Source of the DNA: an uncultured Pseudomonadota bacterium
GTDB taxonomy: Bacteria > Babelota > Babeliae > Babelales > RVW-14
Assembly (NCBI GenBank): GCA_964527595.1
Contig: CAZGPI010000002.1
Coordinates: 27,225-91,224 of the forward strand
Direction: 5' to 3'
DNA: 64,000 bases
The number at the start of each line of letters is the position of its first letter. The first letter of the stretch is position 1. Made by a program: the position numbers and the translations under genes. The notes below the pieces were generated by a model. The model was not told the DNA's origin. It saw only the letters and a program-made list of their open reading frames with translations, and ran no database searches. Below, one piece after another: positions 772-60,063 of this stretch.

Positions 772-1716
772 ATGGAGAGTAGGCTATTATCGGTAGTTAT
801 TCCGCTCTTTAATGAGGAAGAAAACATTGTCCCTCTTTGTGAGGAACTGATTCCGATTCTAAAAAAACTAAAAAATTTTACATCATATGAATTGGTAATG
901 GTCAATGACGGAAGTACCGACACTTCACTTAACCTTCTTAAGTCGCTTGCCGAAAAAGATAAGAATGTTAAGGTAATTTCATTCACCCGTAATTTTGGGC
1001 ATGAGTCTGCTACCTATGCTGGAATTATCAATGCTAAGGGTGATGCTGTTGTGCTTATGGATGCTGATCGCCAAGATCCACCTGAACTTATATTTGAATT
1101 CGAAAAAGAATTTTTGCAAGGATACGATATTGTTTTTGGTCAACGAACAAAGCGCTTGCGTGAAAGTTGGCTAAAAAAAGTGACATCAAAACTTTTTTAT
1201 CCACTATTTAAATTTCTTACCAAGGTTGATATGCCTCGCAATGTCGGGGATTTTTGTTTATTGAGCCGCCGCGCCGTTAATATGATTAAGCAACTTCCCG
1301 AACGTGCCATTTTCGTGCGCGGACTTATTTATTGGTTGGGTTTGCCTAAAAAAGCGGTACCATTTATTCGGCGTGAGCGTGGTGCCGGGACAACAAAATA
1401 CAATTATTTCAAGCTAACCGTTTTTGCGTTGGAAAATATTATCTCATTTTCAACGACTCCTATTTATTGGCTCATATTTTTTTCACTGGTGGTTATTGGG
1501 CTTTGTTTAGTTGGAATGACGATGGCTCTTTTGATGCATATTTTCGGATTAGTGGTTATGACAGGATGGACGTCATTGATTATCTGCATGTTGTTTTTAT
1601 TTGCGACAACATTGTTTTTCGTTGGCTTAATTGGTTTGTATGTTGGAAAAATTTTTCAAGAAGTAAAGCAGCGCCCTATCTTTTTGGTGGGTGAAAAAAT
1701 TAACATTGATATTTAG
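772..1716 (+). CDS. GT2 polyprenyl-phosphate glycosyltransferase (ArnC/GtrB/Dpm1-like) with C-terminal TM helices
   Basis: LSVVIPLFNEEENI, VNDGSTD and MDADRQDP (DxD-type) motifs, plus two hydrophobic C-terminal helices. Start moved to ATG 772, which has GGAG 9 nt upstream; the ORF-track start is 712. The stop codon TAG 1714-1716 is part of a repeat copy. Confidence 0.8.
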   Translation: MESRLLSVVIPLFNEEENIVPLCEELIPILKKLKNFTSYELVMVNDGSTDTSLNLLKSLAEKDKNVKVISFTRNFGHESATYAGIINAKGDAVVLMDADRQDPPELIFEFEKEFLQGYDIVFGQRTKRLRESWLKKVTSKLFYPLFKFLTKVDMPRNVGDFCLLSRRAVNMIKQLPERAIFVRGLIYWLGLPKKAVPFIRRERGAGTTKYNYFKLTVFALENIISFSTTPIYWLIFFSLVVIGLCLVGMTMALLMHIFGLVVMTGWTSLIICMLFLFATTLFFVGLIGLYVGKIFQEVKQRPIFLVGEKINIDI

Positions 1717-1741
1717 GGAGGGGTGGGAGGGAACGGCCCAC
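1714..1741 (+). repeat. GC-rich stem-loop repeat, short form, copy 1
   Basis: TAGGGAGG-G-GTGGG-AGGGAACGG-CCCAC. Its TAG is the stop codon of the GT2 gene. The next ATG (1752) is 10 nt after the stem. Confidence 0.9.
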
Positions 1742-1751
1742 TTAAATAATT

Positions 1752-3524
1752 ATGCCGCTGAAATCTATGAATTACTTACAAAAGCTTTGGTTGATTCTTA
1801 CCAAAAGAGATAAAAGAAACCTAACACTTCTTTTATTGTCGTCAATTATTGTTTCGGTTGTCGAAACAGTTGCACTTAGTGCGGTTATGGTCTTCGTCTC
1901 GATGGCGACCAATTTTGAAGCTATACATAAAAGTAAGGTTGGCAGCTATCTCTACAAGATGAGTGGATGCGCCACGTCGCTTAATTTTATTATGATCTTG
2001 GGTTTTGGGCTTGCCGGTTTTTATCTGGTTCGCGGTATTATCAGTGTTGGTCATGCTTATCTTATGATTAAATTTGCCCAGGGGCGCTATCAAGAATGGT
2101 CACAAAAAATTTTCAAAGATTTTTTATTATTTCCATATCAGCAATTTGCGGTCAAGACATCATCAAAGATTCATCAAATTTTGTTTATAGCGACAGGGCA
2201 ATCATGTCAGGTAATTAATGGGCTTCTTGCCATTTCGTCCGAAGCTTTTACTATTAGTTGCATATATATGATGCTTTTGGTGGTTAATTGGAAAATGACA
2301 TGCGTATTGACTTTATTGTTGGCAACCAAGAGCTTTTTGCTTATCAAGCTGTTTTCGCAAAAATTAGCTCACGCTGGTGTTTTGAGTCGAAAATATTCAA
2401 CTGAGGCATCAAAAACATTTAGTGATGCTTATGGTAATTACAAGCTGCTTAAATTACTTCCGACTAATAGCCCAATGGTTAACCGCTTTATGCATGCGTC
2501 AAAAGGTGTTGCTCAGGCTAATATTTTGAATGTAACATTGCAAAATGCACCGCGATTTATTCTTGAAACAATTGGTTTTTTTATACTAATAGGTGTAATT
2601 CTTTATGTGCTTTTTATGTACCATAGTGCAACGGCTGTTCTTCCCATCGTTTCATTATATGCTTTGGCATTTTACCGGCTTTTGCCGTCGTTAAACAAAA
2701 TTTTGGCGGGATATAATCAGATAACATTTTCTAAATATGCAGTTCATGATGTCTATGATTTTCTTCTTTTACAGCGTGAATCGTTAGGTACTGAGCTTCT
2801 TTGCTTTGACAAAACAATAACGCTTGAACATGTTAAATTTGGTTATTTTGATGATAAGCCGGTTGTTCAAGATGTGAATATTGTTATTCGTAAGGGCGAG
2901 CGCATCGCCTTCGTTGGTGAAAGTGGGGCAGGTAAAAGTACGATAGCCGATATTCTTATGGGGCTTTATGTTCCGCAACAAGGTCGTATGCTTATTGATG
3001 GGGTTACGTTAACCAGTGCTAATCTTAAGGCTTGGCGCAATAAAATTGGCTATGTTCCGCAGAACATTTATTTATTTGATGGGACGGTTGCTGAAAATGT
3101 TGTATTTGGTCGAGCATATGATGAAGTAAAGCTTATAAGTGCTTTGAGGCGCGCGCGTATTTATGATGATTTGTTAGCCAAGGATGGGCTTGAAACACGT
3201 GTTGGCGATATGGCTGTTATGATAAGCGGTGGGCAAAAGCAGCGAATCGCATTGGCACGAGCTCTTTATGATGACCCGGAAGTTTTGGTTTTTGATGAGG
3301 CGACATCAGCGCTTGATAATGCAACCGAATCTAAAATAATGGATGAAATTTATAGTGTTGATAAAAACAAAACGTTAATTATTGTGGCACATCGCTTAAC
3401 TACCGTTGAGCGTTGTGATACTATTTATAAAATAGAAAAAGGACGTGTTACATTAGCTGATGATATTCATAATATTGTTCCTGCGAACTCTCCTGGAGAG
3501 GTGCAGCAAGAAGCAGTCTGCTAA
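1752..3524 (+). CDS. Fused TMD-NBD ABC exporter (MsbA/PglK-like lipid or lipid-linked glycan flippase candidate)
   Basis: N-terminal half has about 6 hydrophobic segments. C-terminal half has Walker A GESGAGKST, signature ISGGQKQRIALARAL and Walker B VLVFDEATSALD. Confidence 0.85.
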   Translation: MPLKSMNYLQKLWLILTKRDKRNLTLLLLSSIIVSVVETVALSAVMVFVSMATNFEAIHKSKVGSYLYKMSGCATSLNFIMILGFGLAGFYLVRGIISVGHAYLMIKFAQGRYQEWSQKIFKDFLLFPYQQFAVKTSSKIHQILFIATGQSCQVINGLLAISSEAFTISCIYMMLLVVNWKMTCVLTLLLATKSFLLIKLFSQKLAHAGVLSRKYSTEASKTFSDAYGNYKLLKLLPTNSPMVNRFMHASKGVAQANILNVTLQNAPRFILETIGFFILIGVILYVLFMYHSATAVLPIVSLYALAFYRLLPSLNKILAGYNQITFSKYAVHDVYDFLLLQRESLGTELLCFDKTITLEHVKFGYFDDKPVVQDVNIVIRKGERIAFVGESGAGKSTIADILMGLYVPQQGRMLIDGVTLTSANLKAWRNKIGYVPQNIYLFDGTVAENVVFGRAYDEVKLISALRRARIYDDLLAKDGLETRVGDMAVMISGGQKQRIALARALYDDPEVLVFDEATSALDNATESKIMDEIYSVDKNKTLIIVAHRLTTVERCDTIYKIEKGRVTLADDIHNIVPANSPGEVQQEAVC

Positions 3525-3541
3525 AGGATTAAGGAAGAGTA

Positions 3542-4726
3542 ATGAAAAAAGCTTTAATTACAGGAATCACCGGACAAGATGGTTCGTACCTTACCGAATT
3601 TCTTCTTTCAAAAGGGTATGAAGTTCACGGAATTATTCGTCGAGCTTCTTCTTTTAATACTCAGCGGATTGACCATATGTATGTTGATCAACATGAGCAA
3701 GAAGCTCGATTCTTTTTGCATTATGGTGATTTATCTGATGCCGGATGTCTTCAAGACATTGTGAGTGCGGTAATGCCTGACGAGGTTTATCACTTGGGTG
3801 CGCAATCACATGTTAAAGTCTCCTTTCAGATGCCCGAATTTACGGCGAATGTGACGGGACTTGGAACCTTGCGTTTATTAGAGACACTTCGTCGATGTGC
3901 TCCTAATGCAAATTTTTATCAGGCATCGTCATCAGAAATGTTTGGTGCTGCGGGTGCGCCCCAAAATGAAAAGACGCCTTTTTATCCACGTAGTCCATAT
4001 GCCGTTGCGAAAGTCTATGCTTATTGGATTGCAGTGAACTATCGAGAAGCTTACGGCTTATTTGCGTGTAATGGCATCTTGTTTAATCACGAGAGCCCTC
4101 GCCGCGGCGAAACATTTGTAACAAGAAAAATAACTCGAGCATTGGTCAATATCATTGCTGGCAAGCAAAGCGTTCTTTATTTAGGTAATCTTAATGCCAA
4201 GCGTGATTGGGGTTTTGCTCCTGAATATGTTGAAATGATGTGGTTGATGCTGCAGCAAAATACACCAAATGATTATGTGGTTGGCACAGGGCAGAGCCAT
4301 ACGATTAAGGAATTTGTTGAAGCTGCATTTGCTTACGCTGGCATTGAGCTTGCATGGGAAGGTGATGGCGTTGACGAACGAGGTATTGTAAGTGCAATAA
4401 ATTCTCCGGGGAGGGGCGGGAGGGAACGGCCCGCATCAATTAATAATATAAAAGTCGGCGACGCGTTAATAAAAATCGACCCCCGCTATTTCAGACCAAC
4501 AGAAGTTGATCACTTACAGGCCGACATCTCTAAAGCAAAAGAACTTCTATGCTGGCAACCACGCGTAACCTTTCATGAGCTGGTTAAAATAATGGTTGAC
4601 TACGACCTCAAATTTGCTGGTCTTGAGCCGGTTGGTGATGGTATTGCAATAGGCGAAAAGAAGGATTTTACCTATACATCACATTCGGTAACATGGACTT
4701 ATCATGAACATGAAAATTGTGTATAG
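3542..4726 (+). CDS. gmd: GDP-mannose 4,6-dehydratase
   Basis: [41 protein letters not shown] and [17 protein letters not shown] are all classic Gmd motifs. The gene carries an in-frame repeat-derived insertion ([12 protein letters not shown]) in a variable loop. Confidence 0.95.
4408..4435 (+). repeat. GC-rich stem-loop repeat, short form, copy 2 (in-frame inside gmd)
   Basis: GGGGAGG-G-GCGGG-AGGGAACGG-CCCGC-A, translated as GRGGRERPA. Confidence 0.9.
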
Positions 4727-4745
4727 AAAGGGATAATGCGCACAT

Positions 4746-4798
4746 TAGGGAGATGCAGGAGGTTGAGCCTGCCCCGGACTTTGATCCGGGGGCCTGCA
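4746..4798 (+). repeat. GC-rich stem-loop repeat, long variant, copy 3 (gmd-fcl spacer)
   Basis: TAGGGAGA-TGCAGG-AGG...inner hairpin CCCCGGA-CTTTGA-TCCGGGG...G-CCTGCA. The fcl ATG is 13 nt after the outer stem. Confidence 0.8.
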
Positions 4799-4811
4799 TA
4801 TATAAAGAATA

Positions 4812-5891: not shown

Positions 5892-5898
5892 GGTTGTG

Positions 5899-11697: not shown

Positions 11698-13464
11698 TCA
11701 TTCGTGAGCAACAAACTGTTGCTTTTCATAATCCAAGGTAATTACTAAGGGTTTTTGTTTAAGATGTTTTTGATCAAAGGTAAGGGTTAGGTCGGTGACA
11801 ATACCTAAAACACTCTGATGAACAGTTTTCGCACCGAGAGATAGATAATTATCAGATAGCGAAAAGTTTATTTTTTGTGGATTAGTTGATGTTAAGCGAA
11901 CGCTTGTTGGTGTATTGGTTATAGTAAAGTAATTTTTTGTATAGTAGGGTGCGCAGCGCATATACCAGCCAGCATGTTCTAAGACATTTGAATTATTCTG
12001 GGTGAGCATAGTTGATGGATCATAATAAACAGGATTTGTTGGAGGAGTTAAAAATAACCAGGCAGCTTGTTCGATTCCGGTACCAAATCCGTCGAGTGGA
12101 AACGCAAGAAAACATAAAGGGCGTGTACCTGAGGTGATTCGCTGGTCATTGGCGAGAGCCAAAAAGGCCTTCTTCATCGTAAAAAGTTTTGTTTCGCGGG
12201 TGCGTAAGTTTGTGTAGGTAAAGAAGGCGCATAGGCCAATAAGGGCAGTACATACAATAGTAATTATTACGTTTATGTATTTGCGGATAGGGATAGGGCG
12301 TTTCCCCCTGAAAAATGAATATATGCTTGTACTTAAAACTGCGAACAAGACAAAAAGAAATGGAGAGGCTTCGTGAAAATACCGTGGGCTATAGGCGCCA
12401 AAAAGTGATGGCCAGAGCATGAGTAGATAGCTAGCGCCGAGGAATAAAAGTAGGAATTTATGTTTATTGCGCCAAAAAAGTATTGCAATAACGAGTGTGG
12501 CAATAAGTAATAAGCTAAGGCGCAGACATTTATGTCCATAAGGGAGCCATGAGAGTGAGAGTGAATCGTAGATACAAACAAGGACTTCGTTAAAACGTGA
12601 AGTTATTTTTGAAAAAATAGTGAAGGCTGAGGATATAGTAAAATTATAGAGCAGGCCGCTCCAGCCGTCGCCCAGGTGGCTATTGCCGGCAGGCCCTCCT
12701 GCACCTCCCTGGAAAAGTTTATGAAACGGATAAAGCCATATGCGAATTGCAAGATATCCGAGTGCTGCTAAACCGTGGGCAACTGGTGCCCATGATATTT
12801 TTTTCTGATACAACCAGCAGCCGCCAAAAAGTATTGCAGGAAATACTATTGCTGTTTCACGGGTAAATAGAGCAATCGTGAAAAACAGTGTCGAAAAAAG
12901 TAAGTAAATGTATTGGCGTCGATCTAGAAAATAGTTGAGCATGATTATGGTAAGCATAAGCAACAAGACATTCAGATAATATTGAAAATTTGCTGGTGCA
13001 CCAAAGCGAAAACCAATTTGTGGGTGCAGGGCAAAAAGAAGCGCAAAAAAAAGTGCAGACGGCCAACCAGAAAACCATGTAAGGATATTGAAAAGAATGG
13101 TTGTATTGAGTGCGTGCAAAAAAACGCTTACCAAATAATAAGCGTAAGCATTAAGGCCGAAAAGCCAATAAGCACAAGCAAAATAAGCGCAATGAATTGG
13201 GCGAAAATAAACACTTAAGAAGTTTAACTTATGAATAGTTGCTGCGCCATACGGTGTATAAAATTGGTGGTGCGATGGGTAAAAGTATTTGTTAACGTTG
13301 CCTTCGATAAAATGGCTCCAAAGCGTTTGCCAGGATTGCATTGTTTTGCCCAGAGCAATGCATGAAAAATCATCACCGTTAAACCACCAGCTTGAGAAAG
13401 GGAGGCCTAAAAAGCAAAAAACAAAGAAAAAAAGCGCAAACGAAATGATAACTTTTTTATTCAT
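11698..13464 (-). CDS. GT-C-like polytopic membrane glycosyltransferase, family A paralog 1 (PMT/TMTC-like F-x-x-DD-[FW]-x-x-I loop motif)
   Basis: At least 10 TM segments. The first loop has WWFNGDDFSCIAL. Paralogous to 13467..14933 and 36169..37824, sharing the LGLPF..W.F..DD start and the SPRY/SSRY region. Contains an in-frame long-form repeat (QGGAGGPAGNSHLGDGWSGL). Confidence 0.6.
   Translation of the reverse strand: MNKKVIISFALFFFVFCFLGLPFSSWWFNGDDFSCIALGKTMQSWQTLWSHFIEGNVNKYFYPSHHQFYTPYGAATIHKLNFLSVYFRPIHCAYFACAYWLFGLNAYAYYLVSVFLHALNTTILFNILTWFSGWPSALFFALLFALHPQIGFRFGAPANFQYYLNVLLLMLTIIMLNYFLDRRQYIYLLFSTLFFTIALFTRETAIVFPAILFGGCWLYQKKISWAPVAHGLAALGYLAIRIWLYPFHKLFQGGAGGPAGNSHLGDGWSGLLYNFTISSAFTIFSKITSRFNEVLVCIYDSLSLSWLPYGHKCLRLSLLLIATLVIAILFWRNKHKFLLLFLGASYLLMLWPSLFGAYSPRYFHEASPFLFVLFAVLSTSIYSFFRGKRPIPIRKYINVIITIVCTALIGLCAFFTYTNLRTRETKLFTMKKAFLALANDQRITSGTRPLCFLAFPLDGFGTGIEQAAWLFLTPPTNPVYYDPSTMLTQNNSNVLEHAGWYMRCAPYYTKNYFTITNTPTSVRLTSTNPQKINFSLSDNYLSLGAKTVHQSVLGIVTDLTLTFDQKHLKQKPLVITLDYEKQQFVAHE
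12651..12712 (-). repeat. GC-rich stem-loop repeat, long form, copy 4 (in-frame inside GT-C-like gene)
   Basis: The reverse complement reads CCAGGGAGGTGCAGGAGGGCCTGCCGGCAATAGCCACCTGGGCGACGGCTGGAGCGGCCTGC. It has 3 differences from copy 6 over about 58 nt. Confidence 0.9.
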
Positions 13465-13466: not shown

Positions 13467-14933
13467 TTATTTGGTGTTACTTAAAATATGAAACTGTTGT
13501 TTTTTATTGTCCCAGGCAATGAATAATGGATTGAATTTTTGATACTTTGCTTCAAGAGGTTCTTGGGCGATATTAAAAACAGGATGACTGCTATCTCCTC
13601 GCAATAGCCAAATTGCTTGTGCGCAGGCACCAAAAAGATGCGGTTCTTGAGGAAGATTAATAAAACAAATAGCACGATTTGTGGTGCGGCTATCTTTGGC
13701 GAGTGAGGTGAATGCTTGGGTGACGGGGTGATATAATTGTTCACGCCTTTTTAGGTCATGAAATAAAAATATACCATTTACTATTGTAGCGGTAATGATA
13801 GCGACAAGCAGGAGTTTCTTGGTAATGGTTTTGAGCTTTTGGATTGGCAAAAGAACGATTACAAGCATTATGAAAAGGGGAATCGCTATGTAATAATAGC
13901 GGGGTTGGTTATGCATTAGCAATGCCGGCCAGCCAAAGAGTGGAATGCTGAATGCTAAAAACAGAGCAACCATTTTTTTATTTGTTTTAGTAAAAAACCA
14001 TAGCAGCAGAAGACAAATGCTAAAAATTAAAAATCCTTTGAACCAAGGGGTATTTTTTGGCAAAGCGGTTAACCCAAAAACATCAGAGATGAAGGTTATG
14101 AAATCAAAAGCGCGGCTTAACATGCGCGTTTTGAAAGATAGCCATGTTGGTTCAAAGGTGAGGGTTGCGGTATTTGAGGTTAAAGGGAAAAAGTGTAGCC
14201 GAGCAATGAAATAAAAAAAGGTAATCGCAAAAAATGGAAGTGATACGAGTATCGCTCGTTGTAGGCAATTCAGCAAAGAGAGTGAACTTTTGAGGATTTC
14301 TTTTTCATAAAGTGGTATGGCAAAAAGAAGCCACAGAGGTAAAAAGAAGGTTTGCTCATGCAAAAAAATGTTTGTACAAAAAAGGGCGCAGGCAAAAAGA
14401 TAAGCCCATTTTTTTTTGTGATCTAGATATGATTTAAGTAAAAGAATAATGCAAAGTAATATGAAAAGCTCGATTTGATATGTTTGGGCACTTATCCACC
14501 CAAGCCAGGTCCATAAACTTGGATGAAATCCAAAAAAAAGTGCTGCAAAAAAGGCAATTGGTATGCTGGTAAATAGCGAATATAGATTAAAAATAAGGAT
14601 TGCAGAGAGCGCATGAATAGCTATTGTTATCAAAAAATAGCCATAAGGATGTGCGGCGAAGAATATATATTGAGGGATGAGATAAACTAATGACATTGGG
14701 CGATAGAGGCCACAAAAAAAAGCTGTTTTTGTGGCCTCTGCGTTAGATGGCCAATAAAAAGCATCAAGGCTTTGTCCATCGGTGAAAAAAGTAATAACAT
14801 CTTGCCATGTTGTTATGACACTATGAAAAATATTTCCCCAATCATCAGATCTGAATCCCCATTTTGTGAATGGAATACCGAGTATGCAGAAAATAAGAAG
14901 AAAAAGGATGATTGATAGATACCGTTTTTTCAT
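13467..14933 (-). CDS. GT-C-like polytopic membrane glycosyltransferase, family A paralog 2
   Basis: LGIPFTKWGFRSDDWGNIF first-loop motif and many TM segments. Tandem with paralog 1. Confidence 0.6.
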   Translation of the reverse strand: MKKRYLSIILFLLIFCILGIPFTKWGFRSDDWGNIFHSVITTWQDVITFFTDGQSLDAFYWPSNAEATKTAFFCGLYRPMSLVYLIPQYIFFAAHPYGYFLITIAIHALSAILIFNLYSLFTSIPIAFFAALFFGFHPSLWTWLGWISAQTYQIELFILLCIILLLKSYLDHKKKWAYLFACALFCTNIFLHEQTFFLPLWLLFAIPLYEKEILKSSLSLLNCLQRAILVSLPFFAITFFYFIARLHFFPLTSNTATLTFEPTWLSFKTRMLSRAFDFITFISDVFGLTALPKNTPWFKGFLIFSICLLLLWFFTKTNKKMVALFLAFSIPLFGWPALLMHNQPRYYYIAIPLFIMLVIVLLPIQKLKTITKKLLLVAIITATIVNGIFLFHDLKRREQLYHPVTQAFTSLAKDSRTTNRAICFINLPQEPHLFGACAQAIWLLRGDSSHPVFNIAQEPLEAKYQKFNPLFIAWDNKKQQFHILSNTK

Positions 14934-15922
14934 AGACAGGCCGTTTCCAGCCTGCGCCCTATCGTGGCTACGGCGGACAAGCCCTTCTGTGCAGGCTGTC
15001 CATTAAAACTAAGTTCCATGATCGTTTGTGATATTTGTTCAACAGTTAATCCAGCCATTGAGAGAAGGTCTTTACGTGTTCCCGTTGTGTGGAAGTAAAA
15101 ATCATTTATGCCAAACATTTTAAAAATAATATGATGATCGATTTGTTGACTTATGATTGATGCCACCGCCTCGCCAAGCCCGCCAATAACACTATGTTCT
15201 TCGATGGTAAATAGTGCTTTTAGTGTGCCACTTTTATTAATGAAATAATTGGCATCAAGTGGTTTAATAGTATGAACGCTTGCAAGGCCGATAGAAATTC
15301 CTTGTTGATTTAAATAGCTACAAACTAAGAATGCAAGGTCGAGCGCATTACTTGAGGCAAGAATGAGCTGATTTTCATTTGGTATTATGTCTAAAATTTT
15401 ACCCAGTGTTACGGGTTCTTTTTCGTTATATTGGACGAGTTCTTCATTATTTGAAAGACGCAGATATGCCGGGCCTTGATGATTTACAAATTGGGGCATA
15501 AGCTGTGCCGCTTCATATTTGCTTCCTGGTGCAATAACGGTCATTTCTGGCAAGGCGCGCATAATAGCTACATCTTCAACTGCGTGGTGAGATAATCCAT
15601 ATTGGGCATAACTGAATCCGCCGCCAACGCCAACTAATTTAATGGGTAGGTTTTGATAGCAAATATCAATTCGAATTTGTTCAAAGCAGCGCATGGTGAT
15701 AAAAGGGATGGTTGAATAAGCAAACACTTTCTTACCCGTTATAGCGAGGCCTGCGGCGAGGCCAATCATGTTTTGTTCAGCAATGCCGGCATTGATAAAT
15801 CGTGTTGGAAATTTTTCTTTAAATTCTTCGACGACAGAGAATCCGACATCACCAACAACTAAATAAATAGTTTCGTCTTGTTCGGCCGCTTGTGTGAGAT
15901 ATTTAATAAACGTAGTACGCAT
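14930..15922 (-). CDS. Transketolase-family TPP enzyme, C-terminal (pyrimidine-binding) subunit
   Basis: FINAGIAEQNMIGLAAGLA and SHHAVEDVAIMRALP are typical of the split transketolase / DXS-like C-terminal half. The last ~25 aa (NGQPAQKGLSAVATIGRRLETACL) are encoded by a repeat copy. Confidence 0.85.
   Translation of the reverse strand: MRTTFIKYLTQAAEQDETIYLVVGDVGFSVVEEFKEKFPTRFINAGIAEQNMIGLAAGLAITGKKVFAYSTIPFITMRCFEQIRIDICYQNLPIKLVGVGGGFSYAQYGLSHHAVEDVAIMRALPEMTVIAPGSKYEAAQLMPQFVNHQGPAYLRLSNNEELVQYNEKEPVTLGKILDIIPNENQLILASSNALDLAFLVCSYLNQQGISIGLASVHTIKPLDANYFINKSGTLKALFTIEEHSVIGGLGEAVASIISQQIDHHIIFKMFGINDFYFHTTGTRKDLLSMAGLTVEQISQTIMELSFNGQPAQKGLSAVATIGRRLETACL
14935..15000 (-). repeat. GC-rich stem-loop repeat, diverged long form, copy 5 (3-prime tail of the transketolase C-subunit gene)
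   Basis: The reverse complement reads GACAGCCTGCACAGAAGGGCTTGTCCGCCGTAGCCACGATAGGGCGCAGGCTGGAAACGGCCTGTC. It aligns with the long-form core (AGGGCTTG.CCG.C.TAGCCAC...GGGCG.A.GGCTGGAAACGGCCTG). Confidence 0.7.
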
Positions 15923-18751: not shown

Positions 18752-19834
18752 TTATAGGGAGGTGCAGGAGGGCTTGCCGGCCATAGCCACCTGGGCGACG
18801 GCTGGAACGGCCTGCGGTAGATTATTGATTTTATTTTCTTGAGCAAAATAGTTTTTATACCAAGCTACTGTTTCTTCAAGCCCTTTGCGAACGCCGTATT
18901 TTGCATGCCATCCAAGAACGGTATGTGCTTTTTTTGAGCAAAGATGTTGGGCTGGAATTTCATTGCAGGCCATGTTTTTGATTATTGGGGTAAGGTGGTT
19001 AGCGTTCATGAGATCCAAAATTTCATGCACCATTTCAACAACGGTGAATGGGTGGTCGGTACTGAAGTTGAAACATTGGCCGACTATTAACGGATTTTCC
19101 ATTGCTTGGGCAAGGGTAAGGTAAGCGTCAACCACGTCTTTTACATAAATGTAATCGCGAACAAATTGGCCATTTGATCTAATTACAGGGGCTTGGTTAT
19201 TAAGAATAGCTTTGATGGTTCCAGGTATTATGCGATTAAGGTGAAAATCACCGCCACCAAAAAAATTTCCACATCGTGTTACGCAAACCGGAAGTTTAAA
19301 CGTATGGAAATACGATTGAGCTATCAGGTCGGTGCAGCTTTTTGAAACATCATAAGGGTGTTGGCCTTGCAGCGGAGCATCTTCGGTATAGGGTAATTTT
19401 TCTTGTGCTCCATAGGCTTTATCGCTTGAAGCAACAACGATGCGTTTGACCCATGGGCTTAAGCGGCAAGCTTCCAAAAGGTTCCATGTTCCTTCGATAT
19501 TTGACCTGAATGTTGAGATCGGTGAGCGATTTGCATAACCGACAATTGCCTGGGCGCCTAAGTGGAAAACTGTTTCAATATCACTTTCATTCAGAACGCG
19601 AGTGAGTAGGTTTTGATCAAGAAGGTCGCCGATAATGACGGATGTTTTTTTATCCAACTGTTGCTGAAAAAATACTGAATGTGAAATGAGATCACGTATT
19701 AAAACAAAAACGTTGGCTTCTTGCTCAATAAGCTCTTGAACAAGCCAGGGGCCTAGTAATCCAGTTGCTCCGGTTACTAAAACATTTCTGTTTTTCCAGT
19801 ATTTTTTTTCATTTGTATAATTTTCCACGAGCAA
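18752..19834 (-). CDS. rfbG: CDP-glucose 4,6-dehydratase
   Basis: WKNRNVLVTGATGLLGPWL, ASSDKAYG and HPYDVSKSCTDL (YxxxK). Sits directly downstream of the cytidylyltransferase. The C-terminal tail is encoded by a long-form repeat. Confidence 0.85.
   Translation of the reverse strand: MLVENYTNEKKYWKNRNVLVTGATGLLGPWLVQELIEQEANVFVLIRDLISHSVFFQQQLDKKTSVIIGDLLDQNLLTRVLNESDIETVFHLGAQAIVGYANRSPISTFRSNIEGTWNLLEACRLSPWVKRIVVASSDKAYGAQEKLPYTEDAPLQGQHPYDVSKSCTDLIAQSYFHTFKLPVCVTRCGNFFGGGDFHLNRIIPGTIKAILNNQAPVIRSNGQFVRDYIYVKDVVDAYLTLAQAMENPLIVGQCFNFSTDHPFTVVEMVHEILDLMNANHLTPIIKNMACNEIPAQHLCSKKAHTVLGWHAKYGVRKGLEETVAWYKNYFAQENKINNLPQAVPAVAQVAMAGKPSCTSL
18755..18817 (+). repeat. GC-rich stem-loop repeat, long form, copy 6 (rfbG / GT2 junction)
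   Basis: TAGGGAGGTGCAGGAGGGCTTGCCGGCCATAGCCACCTGGGCGACGGCTGGAACGGCCTGCGG. This equals the short form with about 33 nt inserted between AGGG and AACGG. Confidence 0.9.
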
Positions 19835-22927: not shown

Positions 22928-24340
22928 CTAAAAGCGCTTAACTTCCTCAAGGTCATCAAAGTGGTGTTTTTCACCTTTGATAAGATAATAGTTTTCGTGA
23001 CCCTTGCCCAAAAGCGCAATAATCGAATGCGGTTGAGCATTTTGTGTCGCAAGGGTTATCGCTTTTTTGCGGTCAAGTTCAACAATAACAGAAGTCATTT
23101 TTTCTTTTGGAATGCCGGCAACAATTTCATTGGCAATTGCTTGACGATCTTCGTCGCGCGGATTGTCGTCGGTAACAATAATAAGATCAGCATAGTCTGC
23201 CGCAAGTTTGCCCATTACCGGGCGCTTGGTGGTGTCTCTATTACCGCCGCAACCAAAAATCACAATAAGATGCGATGTTAAAGGGCGTAATGTTTTGAGC
23301 ACTTCGTCAAATGCTCCTGGCTTATGAGCAAAATCGACAAATGCCTTGGCGCCATTTTTAAGGGTGTGCATTTGTAGGCGTCCTGGAACTCCAGCAAATG
23401 TTGCAAGTGCTTGAGTAATTATATTTGAAGTTACGCCGAGCTCTGAACAAATCAATTTGGCCATACAAACATTGTAATTATTGTATGCTCCAACGAGCGC
23501 CGGGCATAAGGGAGGTGCAGGAGGGAACGGCCTGCAAGCTTCTTCTAAATAAAAGATATGATGCTGTGTTTGCGATTCGCTTGTTTCTTGTTGCTCAAAG
23601 CCGAACGCAATAACTTTTTGCTTTAATCCATTTTCATCAAAATACTCAACCGCTTTTTTGCCCCATGGATTATCAATGTTTATAACGGCAATGCCATTTT
23701 GTTTTAATTGCTTGAATAGCGCAGCTTTGGTTTGAAAATAGTGCTCCATGCTTGGATGAAAATCCATATGTTCTGGGCTAAGATTGGTGAATCCAACAGC
23801 ATCAAATTCAATGCCGTGGATCCGTGAAAGTGCGATAGAATGTGAGGATATTTCCATGATAACGTAATCGATTTTCTCTTTTACGCACTCGGCTAAAAAC
23901 ATTTGAATATAGTCGGCCGCGGGGGATGTTAAGGTGCTTTCTTCTTCTTTGTCGCCAATTTTGTTTTTAATAGAACCAATGAGCGCTGTTTTATACCCGG
24001 CCTGGTTTAGCAGATGGTCAACAAGATAGGTTGTTGTGGTTTTGCCAGCGGTGCCGGTAATTCCAATAAATTTGAGTTTTTGTGCGGGATTATTTAAAGC
24101 TTGAGCCGCATAAGCGGCAAGTGCTTTGCGTGTATCATCGACAAAAATGATTTGAATGTGTGCAGGGATGTCTTTAGGGATGTATGATTTGTCTACAATA
24201 ATCGTTGTCGCACCGCGGTTAATGGCTTTTGGGATGTAAGTAGCTCCATCTTCTTTATGGCCTTTTATTGCAACGAACGTTGACCCCGGTCCGACGTGGT
24301 TGGTGTTACAAGTTACAGGATAAATAACAGGAATAAACAT
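22928..24340 (-). CDS. murE: UDP-N-acetylmuramoyl-L-alanyl-D-glutamate--2,6-diaminopimelate ligase
   Basis: GITGTAGKTTT P-loop, EISSHS, the TNLSPEHMDFH region and the DDNPR motif (VTDDNPRDED), which is typical of the DAP-adding MurE. Carries an in-frame repeat-derived insert (ACRPFPPAPPLCP). Confidence 0.9.
   Translation of the reverse strand: MFIPVIYPVTCNTNHVGPGSTFVAIKGHKEDGATYIPKAINRGATTIIVDKSYIPKDIPAHIQIIFVDDTRKALAAYAAQALNNPAQKLKFIGITGTAGKTTTTYLVDHLLNQAGYKTALIGSIKNKIGDKEEESTLTSPAADYIQMFLAECVKEKIDYVIMEISSHSIALSRIHGIEFDAVGFTNLSPEHMDFHPSMEHYFQTKAALFKQLKQNGIAVINIDNPWGKKAVEYFDENGLKQKVIAFGFEQQETSESQTQHHIFYLEEACRPFPPAPPLCPALVGAYNNYNVCMAKLICSELGVTSNIITQALATFAGVPGRLQMHTLKNGAKAFVDFAHKPGAFDEVLKTLRPLTSHLIVIFGCGGNRDTTKRPVMGKLAADYADLIIVTDDNPRDEDRQAIANEIVAGIPKEKMTSVIVELDRKKAITLATQNAQPHSIIALLGKGHENYYLIKGEKHHFDDLEEVKRF
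23507..23536 (+). repeat. GC-rich stem-loop repeat, short form, copy 7 (antisense, in-frame inside murE)
   Basis: TAAGGGAGG-TGCAGG-AGGGAACGG-CCTGCA, read on the opposite strand as CRPFPPAPPL. Confidence 0.9.
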
Positions 24341-30265: not shown

Positions 30266-30279
30266 TCGTAGGCGTTTTG

Positions 30280-42022: not shown

Positions 42023-42048
42023 TAGCGAATAATTAGTAAAAACAAAAA

Positions 42049-42085
42049 GCCCCTGCATTTAAATGCAGGGGCTTTTTGTTTTTTG
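42049..42085. terminator. Bidirectional rho-independent terminator between convergent genes
   Basis: GCCCCTGCAT-TTAA-ATGCAGGGGC, with an A-run upstream (AAAAACAAAAA) and a T-run downstream (TTTTTGTTTTTTG). Confidence 0.85.
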
Positions 42086-42845: not shown

Positions 42846-42939
42846 AAGACATCCTCTTCTTAAATAATAATATGCAGCATGGGGAAATTTTACATGAATT
42901 ATGCGCGTTCGGCTAGTTTTTGCTTTTGGTAAAAGGAAA

Positions 42940-42980
42940 AAACACAAAAAAGCCTACGCTATTAAACGTAGGCTTTTTTG
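42940..42980. terminator. Rho-independent terminator downstream of nucleotide transporter 1 (hairpin flanked by A-run and T-run)
   Basis: AAAAAACACAAAAAA-AGCCTACG-CTATTAAA-CGTAGGCT-TTTTT. Read on the minus strand, it follows the stop codon of 43008..44309. Confidence 0.8.
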
Positions 42981-44309: not shown

Positions 44310-44416
44310 AAAAAAACCCTTCTAAAAAAATATTAAAAAAGAAACTGTTCGCACACAACGAAAAATCTCCACAACTCCTTCAGTATAGCACAATCGGCTT
44401 ATACTCCCAATAAAAA

Positions 44417-50538: not shown

Positions 50539-50565
50539 GGGAGGTGCAGGAGGGAACGGCCTGCA
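50536..50565 (+). repeat. GC-rich stem-loop repeat, short form, copy 8 (secA-murI spacer)
   Basis: TAAGGGAGG-TGCAGG-AGGGAACGG-CCTGCA. Its TAA is the secA stop codon. The murI ATG is 12 nt after the stem. Confidence 0.9.
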
Positions 50566-50577
50566 ATACAATTAATC

Positions 50578-51384
50578 ATGTCTTTATTTGTTAAGCCAAT
50601 TGGTATGTTTGATTCAGGGGTAGGCGGCCTTGGAATTTTCCAGGCAGTCGCCCATTTATTGCCAAGCGAAGATATAGTCTATGTTGCTGGCAATAAATAC
50701 ATGCCTTTTGGCCAAAAAACTACTGAAGAAGTTCAGCAAATTTCTGAAAAAATTGTCCAATTTCTTATTGATAAACACCAGGTTAAGATGGTTGTTGTTG
50801 CGTGTAATACGGCAACCATTACAAGTATCGCTTATTTACGTTCGAAATTTACAATTCCTTTTGTTGGGGTGGTGCCTGTTGTTAAACCAGCATGTGAACA
50901 AACCAAAACGGGCTGCGTGGCAATTTTATCAACACCGCTAACCGCCGGTGGTGCGTATATTCATGAGCTTATTACTAAGTTTGGAGATGGCGTACGAGTC
51001 TTGAGTATCGGAAGTCCGGGGCTTGCTGAATTGGTTGATTCGGGGATGGTTAATACTCCAGAAATGGAATTATTATTGCGTAAGTTTATCGCTCCGGCAT
51101 TAGAAAATAATGCTGATATTATTGGCTTATGTTGCACTCATTATTCGTTTGTTCGCGAACAATTACAAAAAATTGTTGGCCCGTTGGTAACGATTGTTGA
51201 CTCAAACGATCCGGTTGCTCGTCAGGTTAAACGAGTTTTGGCGGCGATGCCCGATGGGCTAGTTCCAGAAGGTCGACAACCAAAATATCAATTCTATGCG
51301 ACAAAAGATGCAAAGAATTTTGAGATTGTTGCTCAACAGTTAATAGGAGATCTTGTTGCCGGAGTTATCGAAATTGATTTGTAA
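50578..51384 (+). CDS. murI: Glutamate racemase
   Basis: IGMFDSGVGGL, VVACNTAT and LCCTHYSF motifs. Confidence 0.9.
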   Translation: MSLFVKPIGMFDSGVGGLGIFQAVAHLLPSEDIVYVAGNKYMPFGQKTTEEVQQISEKIVQFLIDKHQVKMVVVACNTATITSIAYLRSKFTIPFVGVVPVVKPACEQTKTGCVAILSTPLTAGGAYIHELITKFGDGVRVLSIGSPGLAELVDSGMVNTPEMELLLRKFIAPALENNADIIGLCCTHYSFVREQLQKIVGPLVTIVDSNDPVARQVKRVLAAMPDGLVPEGRQPKYQFYATKDAKNFEIVAQQLIGDLVAGVIEIDL

Positions 51385-53617: not shown

Positions 53618-53633
53618 GCGTACGATAGCTTTC

Positions 53634-53663
53634 TAGGGAGGGTATGGGAGGGAACGGCCCACA
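53634..53663 (+). repeat. GC-rich stem-loop repeat, short form, copy 9
   Basis: TAGGGAGG-GTA-TGGG-AGGGAACGG-CCCA-CA, between the PQ-loop gene and the NurA-like gene. Confidence 0.85.
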
Positions 53664-53709
53664 AGATAGTTTGCTAAAATTTTTTTAAAATAACTCGGAT
53701 ACAAAAGTC

Positions 53710-57495: not shown

Positions 57496-57504
57496 TAAAA
57501 TTAA

Positions 57505-58815: not shown

Positions 58816-58841
58816 GGTAGATCCTTAAGGCTTTTGTTAAT

Positions 58842-58870
58842 TAGGGAGGTGCGGGAGGGAACGGCCCGCA
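58842..58870 (+). repeat. GC-rich stem-loop repeat, short form, copy 10 (hisS-ychF spacer, antisense to transcription)
   Basis: TAGGGAGG-T-GCGGG-AGGGAACGG-CCCGC-A. Confidence 0.9.
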
Positions 58871-58883
58871 TACCAATTTTTAC

Positions 58884-60005
58884 TCATACATTAAAACGTA
58901 TATTCAAGAGATCGCCGTCTTGAACGATATATTCTTTGCCTTCAATGCGGAGCTTACCTTGGGCTTTGAGTTGTTGCTCGCTACCGGCTGCAAAAATATC
59001 TTCGCAGTTATAAACTTCGGCACAAATAAAACCACGTTCAAGATCTGAGTGAATTTCGCCAGCGGCTCGAGGGCACTTGGTGCCGGAATGAATACTCCAA
59101 GCATGAGCCTCTTTTGGCCCGCAAGTGAAGTAGGATATAAGTCCGAGATTTGTGTATGCTTTGGCGATAATATTGTCTAATCCCTTTTCGGTGATATCAA
59201 GCGATTCCATCATTTCGGCCGCATCGGTCTCGCTCATTTGAGCTAATTCGGATTCGATTTTGGCCGAAACCGGAATGACTTTATCTTTGCCAAAACGTTC
59301 GATGAGGCTTTGGTAATGTGGATTAGCTAGGTAATTGCTACCCGAATAATCGTCTTCTGATAAATTTGCGATGATAAGATAATTTTTTCCAGAAAGGAGA
59401 GGGATGATTTGGGTTCCGGCCGCCTTTGCTTGAGTAACAAGTGCTTGAACTTTAAGTATATCACCAGCATTTAAAGCTGCTTTAACGGCAACCAAAAAAG
59501 CTTTTTCCGCTTCTTGATCTTTAATTTGTTGTGCTGTGTTGCCATGCTTTTTCATAGTTGCGCCTAATCGTTCGTCACGTTTTATGACCGATTCAAGGTC
59601 TTTAAGCATAAGCTCGGCGCAGATGGTTTCAAAGTCATCGATAGGGTTAATTGAGTTATGAACGTGGGTGACGTTTGGGTCTTCGAAACAACGCAGGACG
59701 TTGAGTATAAGGTCAACTTCCATGATGTGTGATAGAAACTGATTTCCTAGACCCTCTCCCTCTGCTGCCCCCTTAACCAATCCGGCAATATCGACAAATT
59801 TGACGACGGTTGGAATTGTTTTTCCTGATTTAAAGATTTTGGCAAGGCGATCAAGGCGTTCATCAGGTACGTTGGTAATCGCAATGTTTGGATCGACCGT
59901 ACAGAAAGGATAATTTTCTGCTGGGATGCTTGAATTGGTAAGTGCATTAAAGAGTGTTGATTTTCCTACGTTTGGAAGTCCAACGAGTCCTGCTTGAATT
60001 GCCAT
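58884..60005 (-). CDS. ychF: Ribosome-binding ATPase YchF (Obg-family)
   Basis: GLVGLPNVGKSTLFNALT, FCTVDPN, DIAGLVKGA and a C-terminal TGS-like domain (RAAGEIHSDLERGFI). Confidence 0.93.
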   Translation of the reverse strand: MAIQAGLVGLPNVGKSTLFNALTNSSIPAENYPFCTVDPNIAITNVPDERLDRLAKIFKSGKTIPTVVKFVDIAGLVKGAAEGEGLGNQFLSHIMEVDLILNVLRCFEDPNVTHVHNSINPIDDFETICAELMLKDLESVIKRDERLGATMKKHGNTAQQIKDQEAEKAFLVAVKAALNAGDILKVQALVTQAKAAGTQIIPLLSGKNYLIIANLSEDDYSGSNYLANPHYQSLIERFGKDKVIPVSAKIESELAQMSETDAAEMMESLDITEKGLDNIIAKAYTNLGLISYFTCGPKEAHAWSIHSGTKCPRAAGEIHSDLERGFICAEVYNCEDIFAAGSEQQLKAQGKLRIEGKEYIVQDGDLLNIRFNV

Positions 60006-60033
60006 GTAAACCTTTCGATATTTCTCAGTTTCT

Positions 60034-60063
60034 TAGGGGGATGCCAAGGGGGAACTCCTTGGC
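60034..60063 (+). repeat. GC-rich stem-loop repeat, diverged member, copy 11
   Basis: TAGGGGGAT-GCCAAGG-GGGAACT-CCTTGGC. It keeps the TAGGG head and the GGGAAC loop core but has a completely different, still complementary stem. Confidence 0.6.

What the first reader, a model, noticed from the sequence alone, without database searches (positions are those of the whole stretch)
1714..60063. Dispersed GC-rich stem-loop repeat family whose stems differ but stay complementary
I count eleven copies of a small element in 64 kb of otherwise AT-rich DNA. The consensus is TA[AG]GGGAGG, a 4-7 bp stem arm, the loop AGGGAACGG, then the complementary arm. The head and loop are conserved, but the arms differ between copies while staying complementary: TGCAGG/CCTGCA (copies at 4746, 23507, 50536), GTGGG/CCCAC (1714), GCGGG/CCCGC (4408, 58842), TGGG/CCCA (53634) and GCCAAGG/CCTTGGC (60034). 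That pattern is what selection on a folded nucleic acid produces, or templated spread from several master copies. It is not what sequence drift produces. Relative to local transcription, 7 copies are sense and 4 are antisense. Size and behaviour recall REP/BIME elements and Rickettsia palindromic elements, but I do not recognise this head-plus-loop sequence as any described family.
Basis: seen in the sequence. Interest (0 to 1): 0.85.

Follow-up and report, generated by a model that had tools for sequence, protein, structure and literature searches.

The report
Tiny mobile hairpin repeat in Dependentiae
The window, from an intracellular bacterium of the candidate phylum Dependentiae, is peppered with a roughly 30-base GC-rich hairpin repeat that has recently inserted between and even inside genes; it behaves like the REP and Rickettsia palindromic elements already known from other bacteria, but carries its own signature sequence.

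Summary
Eleven copies lie in 64 kb. The loop AGGGAACGG occurs 6 times against 0.22 expected.

With copies from other genomes, 5 of the 6 stem pairs show compensatory changes, while the head (TA[A]GGGAGG) and the 9-nt loop stay fixed. No Rfam family matches.

It is inserted DNA. At six sites, syntenic relatives have short, empty spacers or lack the extra codons. About 74 kb of syntenic DNA from the relatives at 61-85% marker-protein identity holds no copy. Two closer genomes share two of the insertions and lack a third.

Copies sit in both orientations. Some supply stop codons or new C-terminal tails. Some lie in frame inside Gmd, MurE and a membrane protein, and inside UvrC in another organism. 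A long form is the short form plus a 33-nt hairpin inserted in the loop.

Every one of these behaviours is already described for tagged REP elements and the short Rickettsia palindromic elements. The tag here is not GTAG or CGTC, and no transposase could be found.

The same motif also sits in the non-coding region of a 1.4-kb circular replicon that encodes only a replication protein (Rep). That hints at an HUH nuclease as the mobiliser, but does not prove it.

Verdict: a new family of a known kind, of moderate interest.

The parts
1714..1744 (+). Short copy c1: TAGGGAGGG GTGGG AGGGAACGG CCCAC T TA. Its TAG is the stop codon of the glycosyltransferase ORF 712-1716. The ABC-transporter ORF starts 10 nt after the hairpin.
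   Evidence: (52.3 bits)
4406..4434 (+). Short copy c2, sense and in frame inside GDP-mannose 4,6-dehydratase (ORF 3542-4726). It is translated as ..[12 protein letters not shown].. The 5' TA is replaced by CC, so the frame stays open. It lies in a variable loop, +9 aa relative to E. coli Gmd.
   Evidence: (47.2 bits)
4746..4800 (+). Variant copy c3. It has the same head (TAGGGAGA) and outer stem TGCAGG/CCTGCA, but after AGG the loop holds a different 28-nt hairpin (CCCCGGA..TCCGGGG). It lies between gmd and the next epimerase gene.
   Evidence: (11.2 bits)
12647..12712 (-). Long copy c4, sense. It is part of a clean 27-codon (81-nt) in-frame insertion in the 588-aa membrane protein ORF 11698-13464, which is absent from the orthologues in L123 and L124.
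   Evidence: I1; A7
14933..14996 (-). Degenerate long copy c5 with the head lost. It encodes the C-terminal tail of the transketolase-C ORF 14930-15922 and abuts the ATG of ORF 13467-14933.
   Evidence: (A8)
18755..18819 (+). Long copy c6, antisense to the local genes. It encodes the last ~22 residues and adjoins the stop codon of the epimerase ORF 18752-19834(-). It is absent in L111 and L123. The orthologous site in L027 holds the SHORT form, so long = short + a 33-nt hairpin in the loop after AGG.
   Evidence: A2; A5
23507..23539 (+). Short copy c7, antisense and in frame inside MurE (ORF 22928-24340 -). It is translated as ..ACRPFPPAPPL.. and replaces a variable, dispensable loop (net -6 aa against the closest homologues).
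   Evidence: A1; 50.2 bits
50536..50568 (+). Short copy c8 between secA and the glutamate-racemase gene. Its TAA is the SecA stop codon. It is present at the same site in L065, and absent in L143, where the two genes overlap (GTGA).
   Evidence: 53.1 bits; A6
53634..53668 (+). Short copy c9 between the PQ-loop and NurA genes. It is absent in L065 and L143. The spacer is 92 nt here against 12-13 nt there.
   Evidence: 47.5 bits; A4
58842..58872 (+). Short copy c10, antisense, between ychF and hisS. It is absent in L142 and L143. The spacer is 68 nt here against 24-26 nt there. The extra 42 nt are the element plus the tail TACCAATTTTTAC.
   Evidence: (51.9 bits)
60034..60067 (+). Variant copy c11, antisense: TAGGGGGAT GCCAAGG GGGAACT CCTTGGC GA TA. 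It is absent in L143 (spacer 118 nt against 38 nt).
   Evidence: (14 bits)

Best explanation
This is a family of miniature, non-autonomous mobile palindromic DNA elements of the REP / short-RPE kind. It has expanded recently in one narrow lineage of Candidatus Dependentiae (TM6/Babeliales-like).

The unit is TA-(A)GGGAGG(G), 0-3 nt, a 4-6 bp arm, the loop AGGGAACGG, the complementary arm, 0-2 nt, then TA. In this genome an AT-rich tail often follows.

Shown:
- It is inserted DNA, polymorphic among relatives.
- It lands in either orientation, between or inside genes.
- Where it persists inside genes it is read in frame, or it donates a stop codon or a C-terminal tail.
- The hairpin is conserved by Watson-Crick compensatory change, while the head and loop are invariant.
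- The loop itself is a site where further hairpin DNA was inserted.

Inferred:
- The invariant head and loop are the recognition determinants of a trans-acting enzyme, and the stem needs only to fold.
- The substrate is most likely a single-stranded DNA hairpin cut by an HUH-type nuclease (RAYT, IS200/IS605-like or Rep-like).
- TA marks the cleavage or target site.

Any effect on neighbouring genes, such as separating overlapping genes, making new protein tails, or acting on translation or mRNA stability, would be a secondary consequence.
For: Non-random repeat: 6 matches against 0.22 expected; covariance-model scores of 47-53 bits for six copies.

Hairpin with covariation, and essentially no G-T pairs (2 of 108 cells, both in the outermost pair).

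Empty sites in syntenic relatives:
- c6 against L111 and L123.
- c4 against L123 and L124, a clean 27-codon insertion.
- c8, c9, c10 and c11 against L143, L142 or L065.

There are no copies in about 74 kb of syntenic DNA from relatives at 61-85% marker identity. Two closer MAGs share c6 and c8.

In-frame and stop-codon-donating copies: (UvrC in L113).

Long form equals short form plus a 33-nt insert at an orthologous site. Both long variants break the loop after AGG.

TA flanks: a 3' TA lies within 0-2 nt of the stem in 11 of 19 independent copies, against a background of 0.20 (p=3e-4).

Antisense copies are as intact as sense copies. This argues for a constraint at the DNA level rather than on the sense RNA.

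A copy with the exact head and loop lies in the 320-nt non-coding region of a 1.42-kb circular replicon. That replicon encodes only a geminivirus-type HUH replication protein (Rep) and uses TGA as a sense codon. A relative with 82% Rep identity has a copy at the same place.

These behaviours match those published for tagged REPs: stem sub-families, long-loop variants, TAG donation and intragenic copies in repair genes (PMC3733652).
Against: No transposase, RAYT or Rep gene was found in the window or next to any copy in the related loci. The source genome could not be scanned.

The tag is not GTAG or CGTC.

Copies are singletons or head-to-tail tandems, not the inverted dimers typical of REP/BIME elements.

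A bias toward the lagging-strand template, expected for single-strand transposition, is not supported. The window has 9 of 11 copies on the G-rich strand (p=0.065), but independent loci split about evenly.

The empty sites are too diverged to show whether TA is duplicated.

In the Rep-only replicon, the hairpin's role as origin is unproven. More distant relatives use a canonical TAATATTAC stem-loop.

The perfect identity of orthologous copies in L027 and L065 is partly an ascertainment effect, because those loci were found with an exact pattern.
Confidence: 0.6

Rival explanations
1. It is primarily an RNA cis-element. The head (AGGGAG) and the hairpin loop (AGGGAA) are two A-N-GGA-N motifs 13 nt apart. 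That is the layout bound by CsrA/RsmA-type proteins, or it could be a Shine-Dalgarno-plus-hairpin module. On this reading it would control translation or stability of flanking genes, and mobility would be incidental.
For: Both motifs fit ANGGAN. One lies in a hairpin loop and one in a single-stranded head (the CsrA consensus is from my own knowledge).

The three genes directly downstream of sense copies (starts at 1752, 4812 and 50578) have no Shine-Dalgarno sequence of their own. Most other window genes have AAGGA or GGAG at -8 to -13.

L122 and L140 carry runs of hairpins with purine-rich loops and GGAG linkers, which resembles CsrB/RsmZ-like sponge RNAs.

At the secA-murI junction, the insertion replaced an overlapping stop/start arrangement and the downstream gene gained a new ATG.
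Against: Four of the 11 copies are antisense and at least five are translated inside ORFs, in three different frames.

Antisense copies are as intact as sense ones.

The stems show essentially no G-U pairs.

The distance from the hairpin to the next real start codon ranges from 3 to 57 nt.

No Rfam family matches.
Confidence: 0.15
2. It is a classical MITE moved by a DDE transposase of the IS630/Tc1-mariner type, with TA as a true target-site duplication and the hairpin arms acting as its inverted repeats.
For: TA flanks both ends in most copies. The small size and the insertion polymorphism also fit.
Against: The element is asymmetric. A conserved 8-9-nt head lies on one side only, so the inverted repeats are not terminal.

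At 27-31 nt it is far smaller than known MITEs.

The arms vary while the loop is invariant. This is the opposite of what recognition of terminal repeats by a transposase predicts.

No IS630-like gene was seen.
Confidence: 0.12
3. It is a binding site on double-stranded DNA, iteron-like, with two direct AGGGA(G/A) repeats one helical turn apart. A replication, partition or nucleoid protein would bind it, and the sites would be selected in place.
For: AGGGAGG and AGGGAAC are direct repeats 13 nt apart. Repeated GGGAGGG units lie next to the hairpin in the Rep-only replicon. The core is identical at two orthologous sites.
Against: Compensatory changes in the arms have no role in a duplex binding site.

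Copies inside coding sequences, and insertion polymorphism between close relatives, do not fit sites that are selected in place.
Confidence: 0.05

Closest known systems
Tagged REP elements (GTAG and CGTC super-families; REP/BIME, REPIN) and their RAYT transposases (PMC3733652, PMC2817692)
   Same: - The unit is 20-40 nt, with an unpaired conserved tag at one end and a GC-rich stem-loop.
- Sub-families differ by complementary stem changes.
- Long-loop variants hold an inner hairpin.
- Copies lie just after stop codons and sometimes provide the TAG.
- In-frame copies occur inside genes, including uvr genes.
- The distribution is lineage-specific.
   Different: - The tag is YTA(A)GGGAGG, not GTAG or CGTC.
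- The 9-nt loop is invariant, whereas REP loops are usually short or variable.
- No G-T pairs are seen in the stems.
- Copies are singletons or head-to-tail tandems, not inverted dimers.
- No RAYT gene has been found yet.
- The host is a candidate phylum in which I found no published description of REPs.
Rickettsia palindromic elements (RPE-1; the short RPE-4 and RPE-6 are classed as CGTC REPs in PMC3733652)
   Same: Both occur in obligate intracellular bacteria. Both are palindromic elements inserted in frame into protein-coding genes, adding peptide segments at tolerated loops. Both occur in either orientation.
   Different: RPE-1 is 100-150 bp. The sequences are unrelated. The element here also donates stop codons and tails at gene ends, and it carries a conserved head and loop.
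IS200/IS605-derived palindrome-associated elements and HUH single-strand transposition
   Same: Both have an asymmetric layout, with a conserved single-stranded segment 5' of a hairpin whose shape, rather than sequence, is kept. Both have short fixed flanking nucleotides at the ends.
   Different: The element here has one hairpin rather than two subterminal ones. No strand bias was demonstrated and no TnpA was found.
Origin stem-loops of CRESS-DNA Rep replicons
   Same: Both have a hairpin with a conserved 9-nt loop and adjacent direct repeats. One copy lies upstream of the rep gene in a 1.42-kb Rep-only circle.
   Different: The loop is AGGGAACGG, not NANTATTAC. Origin function was not shown. 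The chromosomal copies have no adjacent rep gene.
Mitochondrial GC-cluster and 'byp' hairpin elements of yeasts (from my own knowledge)
   Same: Both are short GC-rich mobile hairpins in AT-rich genomes, and both can land inside coding sequences.
   Different: Byp elements are skipped by the ribosome. Here the reading frames stay open through the element, so it is translated.

Membership tests
REP (GTAG/CGTC-tagged palindromic repeats) | A unit of 20-40 bp that folds into a GC-rich stem-loop | tested here: met
   The core is 27-31 nt, with a 4-6 bp stem supported by covariation.
REP (GTAG/CGTC-tagged palindromic repeats) | An unpaired terminal tetranucleotide tag, GTAG or CGTC (PMC3733652) | tested here: not met
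   The tag is T/C-TA-(A)GGGAGG. The base before TAG is never G in 16 copies.
REP (GTAG/CGTC-tagged palindromic repeats) | High copy number (>100 per genome) | not testable with these tools
   There are 11 copies in 64 kb. The source genome could not be fetched.
REP (GTAG/CGTC-tagged palindromic repeats) | Frequent inverted dimers (BIME/REPIN) | tested here: not met
   All window copies are singletons. L061, L122 and L127 hold head-to-tail tandems.
REP (GTAG/CGTC-tagged palindromic repeats) | A cognate RAYT gene flanked by the repeats (PMC2817692) | not testable with these tools
   None was found in the window or beside copies in the related loci.
Rickettsia palindromic elements | In-frame insertion into protein-coding genes | tested here: met
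   Gmd, MurE, a membrane protein and UvrC (L113), plus C-terminal tails of three further ORFs.
Rickettsia palindromic elements | Sequence and size of the RPE families (RPE-1 is 100-150 bp; genus Rickettsia) | tested here: not met
   The element is 30-66 nt. The host is Dependentiae-like by the names of its MurE and YchF homologues.
MITE of the IS630/Tc1 type | Terminal inverted repeats at both termini | tested here: not met
   A conserved head lies on the 5' side only, so the arms are internal.
MITE of the IS630/Tc1 type | TA target-site duplication | tested here: inconclusive
   TA is enriched at both ends, but the empty sites are too diverged to show duplication.
CRESS-type replication origin | A stem-loop carrying the nonanucleotide NANTATTAC next to a rep gene | tested here: not met
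   The loop is AGGGAACGG. Only the copies in L117/L127-L131 lie next to a rep gene. The relative L134 has a canonical TAATATTAC origin.
Any Rfam RNA family | A covariance-model match | tested here: not met
   Across the whole window, only two tRNAs reach gathering score. Nothing relevant appears at E<=10 on the short and long copies.
CsrA/RsmA binding site | Consistent sense orientation in leaders or sponge RNAs, and a CsrA gene in the genome | tested here: inconclusive
   The two-GGA layout fits. However, orientation is 7 sense to 4 antisense and many copies lie inside ORFs. The presence of CsrA could not be tested.

The most novel reading that the evidence does not exclude
The invariant head and 9-nt loop are the recognition site of an HUH replication or transposition nuclease shared with a family of 1.4-kb Rep-only circular replicons that read TGA as a sense codon. 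The chromosomal hairpins of this Dependentiae lineage would then be miniature 'origin-like' sequences copied around the genome by a Rep-type enzyme. That would link CRESS-type Rep replicons directly to REP-like genomic repeats. It would also explain why the motif turns up in unrelated genetic systems: Dependentiae chromosomes, a GC-rich contig binned as Oscillospiraceae, viral contigs and the Rep circle.
Probability: 0.15. Interest if true: 0.8.

Novelty: new variant of a known kind. Interest (0 to 1): 0.45.

Why it matters
Dependentiae are uncultured, genome-reduced intracellular parasites of protists, and I found no published description of dispersed palindromic repeats in them.

The family shows recent genome turnover in such a lineage. 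It splits overlapping genes, rewrites protein C-termini and adds peptide loops to essential enzymes such as MurE. It also gives a convenient marker for strain typing and for dating insertions.

Its reversed conservation pattern, with a fixed tag and loop and a free stem, makes it a clean substrate for finding the enzyme that moves REP-like elements. So does its presence on a Rep-only mini-replicon. For most REP-like families that enzyme is still unknown.

Tried and rejected
Only L027, L061, L065, L087 and L091 (and probably L040) are real.

2. Window proteins could not be looked up in the contig index, so the rest of the 108.8-kb source contig was not reached.

3. Rfam gave nothing, at gathering threshold and at E-value threshold.

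4. A viral-contig scan with the canonical pattern and one with the long-form insert both gave 0 hits.

5. Replication-strand bias looked promising in the window (9 of 11 copies) but was not reproduced in independent loci. I dropped it as evidence.

6. I considered a module in which the Shine-Dalgarno sequence is brought near the ATG by the hairpin. An ATG lies 10-13 nt after the hairpin in many copies. However, the distance to real gene starts ranges from 3 to 57 nt, and some of those ATGs are not gene starts. I kept this only as part of the RNA rival.

7. I considered translational bypass or excision of the in-ORF copies and rejected it. The frames are open through every in-ORF copy, and sense copies have lost the TA(A/G).

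8. The Rep of L117 has no match in the plasmid collection. More distant Rep relatives use a canonical TAATATTAC origin or lack the motif, so 'hairpin = origin' stays unproven.

9. A Pfam search for a transposase next to copies in six other loci found none.

10. I do not use the identity of orthologous copies as proof of purifying selection, because L027 and L065 were found by an exact pattern match.

Full report
**Observation.** The loop AGGGAACGG occurs six times in the window, all on the + strand, where shuffles give 0.22.

A repeat search and a covariance model built later recover the same six canonical copies at 47-53 bits, plus weaker relatives. The first and third of these are 89% identical over 71 nt (I1). 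The window has 39% G+C and positive GC skew throughout.

**Anatomy.** The short form is TA-(A)GGGAGG(G), 0-3 nt, arm, AGGGAACGG, arm, 0-2 nt, TA.

The long form is the short form with 33 nt (GCTTGCCGGCCATAGCCACCTGGGCGACGGCTG, itself a hairpin) inserted in the loop after AGG. At the site where the window has the long form, the close relative L027 has the short form, with otherwise identical core sequence. Copy 4746 has a different 28-nt hairpin at the same loop position and has lost GAACG. Copy 60034 has the loop GGGAACT.

A TA dinucleotide precedes the head in about 15 of 19 independent copies. A TA follows the 3' arm within 0-2 nt in 11 of 19, against a background probability of 0.20 (p = 3e-4, or 0.01 with a generous background of 0.3).

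In this genome an AT-rich tail with a recurring CAATTWWT / AATTTTTAC motif follows many copies. The tail appears to have been inserted together with the element at 58842 and 12647.

**Covariation.** The public scans yielded further copies with new arms: CCGGG/CCCGG, CAGGG/CCCTG, CTGG/CCAG, TTGAGG/CCTCAA and TTGAG/CTCAA. A later scan added GTAAGG/CCTTAC.

In an alignment of 18 copies:
- 92.6% of cells pair.
- 5 of 6 pairs show changes on both sides.
- The covariation score is 0.54 against 0.19 ± 0.04 in shuffles (0 of 500 reach it).
- Sliding the 3' partner by 1-3 columns drops pairing to 32-51%.

Apart from the outermost pair, every pair is Watson-Crick and no G-T pairs occur. Both strands can therefore fold equally well.

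**Organism and relatives.** The named homologues of MurE and YchF are from Candidatus Babeliales, Dependentiae or TM6. The window also encodes two TLC ATP/ADP translocases. The source is therefore a Dependentiae-like intracellular bacterium.

Two MAGs labelled 'uncultured Pseudomonadota' are close relatives: CAZBUZ01 (loci L027, L061) and CAZLQB01 (loci L065, L087, L091). In the regions that are syntenic with the window they share about 80-89% amino-acid identity with it.

**It is inserted DNA.** Six of the eleven sites can be compared with syntenic relatives that lack the element.

| Copy | Relatives lacking it | What the comparison shows |
|---|---|---|
| c6 (18755) | L111, L123 | About 60 extra nt between an epimerase gene and a glycosyltransferase gene. 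Those genes overlap in the relatives. The epimerase now ends in 22 element-encoded residues. |
| c4 (12647) | L123, L124 | A clean 27-codon in-frame insertion in a membrane protein. |
| c8 (50536) | L143 | secA and murI overlap (GTGA) in L143. In the window they are separated by the element, and murI has a new ATG. |
| c9 (53634) | L065, L143 | Spacer of 92 nt against 12-13 nt. |
| c10 (58842) | L142, L143 | Spacer of 68 nt against 24-26 nt. |
| c11 (60034) | L143 | Spacer of 118 nt against 38 nt. |

The model finds no copy in about 74 kb of syntenic DNA from relatives at 61-85% marker-protein identity: L111, L123, L126, L142 and L143. The closer MAGs share c6 and c8, and CAZLQB01 lacks c9. 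The expansion is therefore recent and confined to a narrow clade. At least one insertion is younger than the split between the window genome and CAZLQB01.

**Relation to genes.** Copies occur in both orientations: 7 sense and 4 antisense (p = 0.55).
- The TAG of c1 and the TAA of c8 are the stop codons of the upstream genes. In L065, SecA keeps its own TAA six bases upstream of the element, so the fusion in the window is a secondary 6-nt deletion.
- c2 is translated inside Gmd, in a variable loop (+9 aa relative to E. coli Gmd).
- c7 is translated antisense inside MurE. It replaces a loop that some homologues lack altogether.
- c5 and c6 form C-terminal tails.
- In other organisms, a copy lies antisense inside UvrC (L113), and another forms the tail of an ABC ATPase (L087).
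- Sense copies inside ORFs have lost the TA of the head (CCGGGGAGG, CCAGGGAGG). This keeps the frame open, so these copies are translated rather than bypassed.

**Searches for a known identity or a mobilising gene.** Rfam has no match. Pfam annotation of about 30 window ORFs and of the genes next to copies in six other loci shows no transposase or HUH protein. My literature searches found no dispersed palindromic repeat described in Dependentiae.

They did return the survey of tagged REPs (PMC3733652). That survey describes, for the GTAG and CGTC families, each of the following:
- units of 20-40 bp with an unpaired terminal tag;
- sub-families that differ by complementary stem residues;
- long loops containing inner hairpins;
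- termini that provide TAG stop codons;
- copies inside genes, notably uvr genes. The short Rickettsia elements RPE-4 and RPE-6 are classed there as CGTC REPs.

RAYT transposases flanked by REPs are proposed as the mobilisers (PMC2817692).

The present element shares all these behaviours but fails the tag test, because the base before TAG is never G. It is also unusual in having an invariant 9-nt loop and no inverted dimers.

**A lead toward the enzyme.** One metagenome match (L117) belongs to a circular replicon of about 1.42 kb, recovered from five samples (L117, L127-L130). It encodes only a replication protein (Rep) with a geminivirus-type HUH domain (Pfam Gemini_AL1, E = 2e-9) and an SF3 helicase domain. 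The gene contains an in-frame TGA, where a homologue has Trp.

Its 320-nt non-coding region has no canonical TAATATTAC stem-loop. Instead it holds TTAGGGAG-GGGAACT-CTCCCTA followed by a canonical short element. A replicon with 82% Rep identity (L131) has a single copy at the same place (head CAGGGAGGG, stem AGGG/CCCT, loop AGGGAACGT).

More distant Rep relatives either lack the motif (L132, L133) or have a normal TAATATTAC origin (L134).

A chance match of the 21 fixed bases of the search pattern in a 28% G+C sequence is very unlikely by my estimate, so the sharing is real. Whether the hairpin is the origin of that replicon or an inserted copy is open. Related motifs also occur at the end of a GC-rich contig binned as Oscillospiraceae (L040, 26 nt identical to the window's core) and in viral contigs (L140, marginally L141 and L137).

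**Mechanism.**

Shown:
- The element is a repeated, inserted, polymorphic DNA segment.
- Its hairpin is maintained by compensatory change.
- Its head and loop do not vary.
- Its loop has received further insertions.

Inferred:
- A trans-acting enzyme recognises the head and loop on a folded single strand and cuts at or near the flanking TA.

An HUH nuclease is the best candidate for three reasons: the asymmetric tag-plus-hairpin layout, the pattern in which shape rather than sequence is conserved, and the Rep-replicon link.

Against this, no such gene was found, and the strand bias seen in the window (9 of 11 copies, p = 0.065) is not reproduced in independent loci. The perfect identity of the cores at the two orthologous sites would suggest constraint. 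However, those loci were found with an exact pattern, so only the roughly ten free stem positions carry information.

**Rivals.** An RNA role remains possible as a secondary function. Two ANGGAN motifs, one of them in a hairpin loop, match the layout of CsrA targets, and three downstream genes lack their own Shine-Dalgarno sequence. Several facts argue against it as the primary explanation: the antisense copies, the in-ORF copies, the absence of G-U pairs, and the variable distance to start codons. A Tc1/IS630-type MITE fits the TA flanks but not the asymmetry or the variable arms. A duplex binding site does not explain the covariation.

**Verdict.** The element is a new family, with a new tag and an invariant loop, of an already well-described kind of small mobile palindromic repeat, in a phylum where I found none described. 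Interest is moderate. The Rep-replicon connection is the one thread that could make it more than that.

Noticed in passing
L127 1-1665 (also L117, L128-L130); relative L131: A circular replicon of about 1.42 kb encodes only a geminivirus-type HUH Rep. The gene has an in-frame TGA (Trp in a homologue), which implies genetic code 4 or a similar code. No canonical TAATATTAC origin lies in its non-coding region. It was recovered from five different samples.
   Followed up: partly
L122 800-1060 (- strand): A non-coding stretch of unknown origin (36% G+C, no long ORF in code 11 or code 4) holds three tandem copies of the element, followed by further hairpins (TCTGAGG/CCTCAG, TTTGAGG/CCTCAA) joined by GGAG linkers. 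The layout recalls CsrB/RsmZ-type sponge RNAs.
   Followed up: partly
L040 1-60 (- strand): An 18-kb contig with 58% G+C, binned as Oscillospiraceae, ends in a 26-nt stretch identical to the window's core, followed by a second unit that resembles copy 60034. It apparently lies inside an ORF. It could be a genuine distant occurrence or a mis-binned or chimeric contig end.
   Followed up: no
window 42038-42083: A perfect 46-nt palindrome (AAAAACAAAAAGCCCCTGCATTT / AAATGCAGGGGCTTTTTGTTTTT) lies between the convergent ORFs 41195-42022 and 42087-42947. It looks like a bidirectional intrinsic terminator and is unrelated to the repeat family.
   Followed up: no
window 27523-31665: Three tandem paralogous genes of about 460 aa each (27523-28923, 28898-30265, 30277-31665) show up as a 1.39-kb direct-repeat family in the repeat search. 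They lie inside a large polysaccharide-biosynthesis cluster that fills most of 1-38 kb.
   Followed up: no
window 43008-45751: Two adjacent TLC-family ATP/ADP translocase paralogues are present, the hallmark of an energy-parasitic intracellular lifestyle.
   Followed up: no
window 50530-50540 vs L065 6700-6720: In the relative, SecA has its own TAA followed by GTAT and then the element. In the window, 6 nt are missing, so the SecA stop codon is now the first three bases of the element.
   Followed up: yes
L143 16270-16300 vs window 50536-50580: Where the element is absent, secA and murI overlap by GTGA (translational coupling). With the element present, murI has a new ATG, four extra N-terminal codons and no nearby Shine-Dalgarno sequence.
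   Followed up: partly
L140 430-480 (- strand): A 56-kb viral contig with 31% G+C carries a related tagged hairpin (TAGGGAGGG..GTAAGG gAGGGAACGGa CCTTAC). Just upstream lies CGTTCCCC, which is complementary to the loop, so a pseudoknot is possible. A second hairpin with the loop AGGAAAT follows.
   Followed up: no
L061 2342-2425: Two copies lie head to tail, about 45 nt apart. The upstream copy is degenerate and begins GTAGAGCGGG, which recalls the GTAG tag of classical REPs.
   Followed up: no
window 63059-63232: tRNA-Cys(GCA) and tRNA-Leu(TAA) genes lie 13 nt apart at the right end of the window.
   Followed up: no
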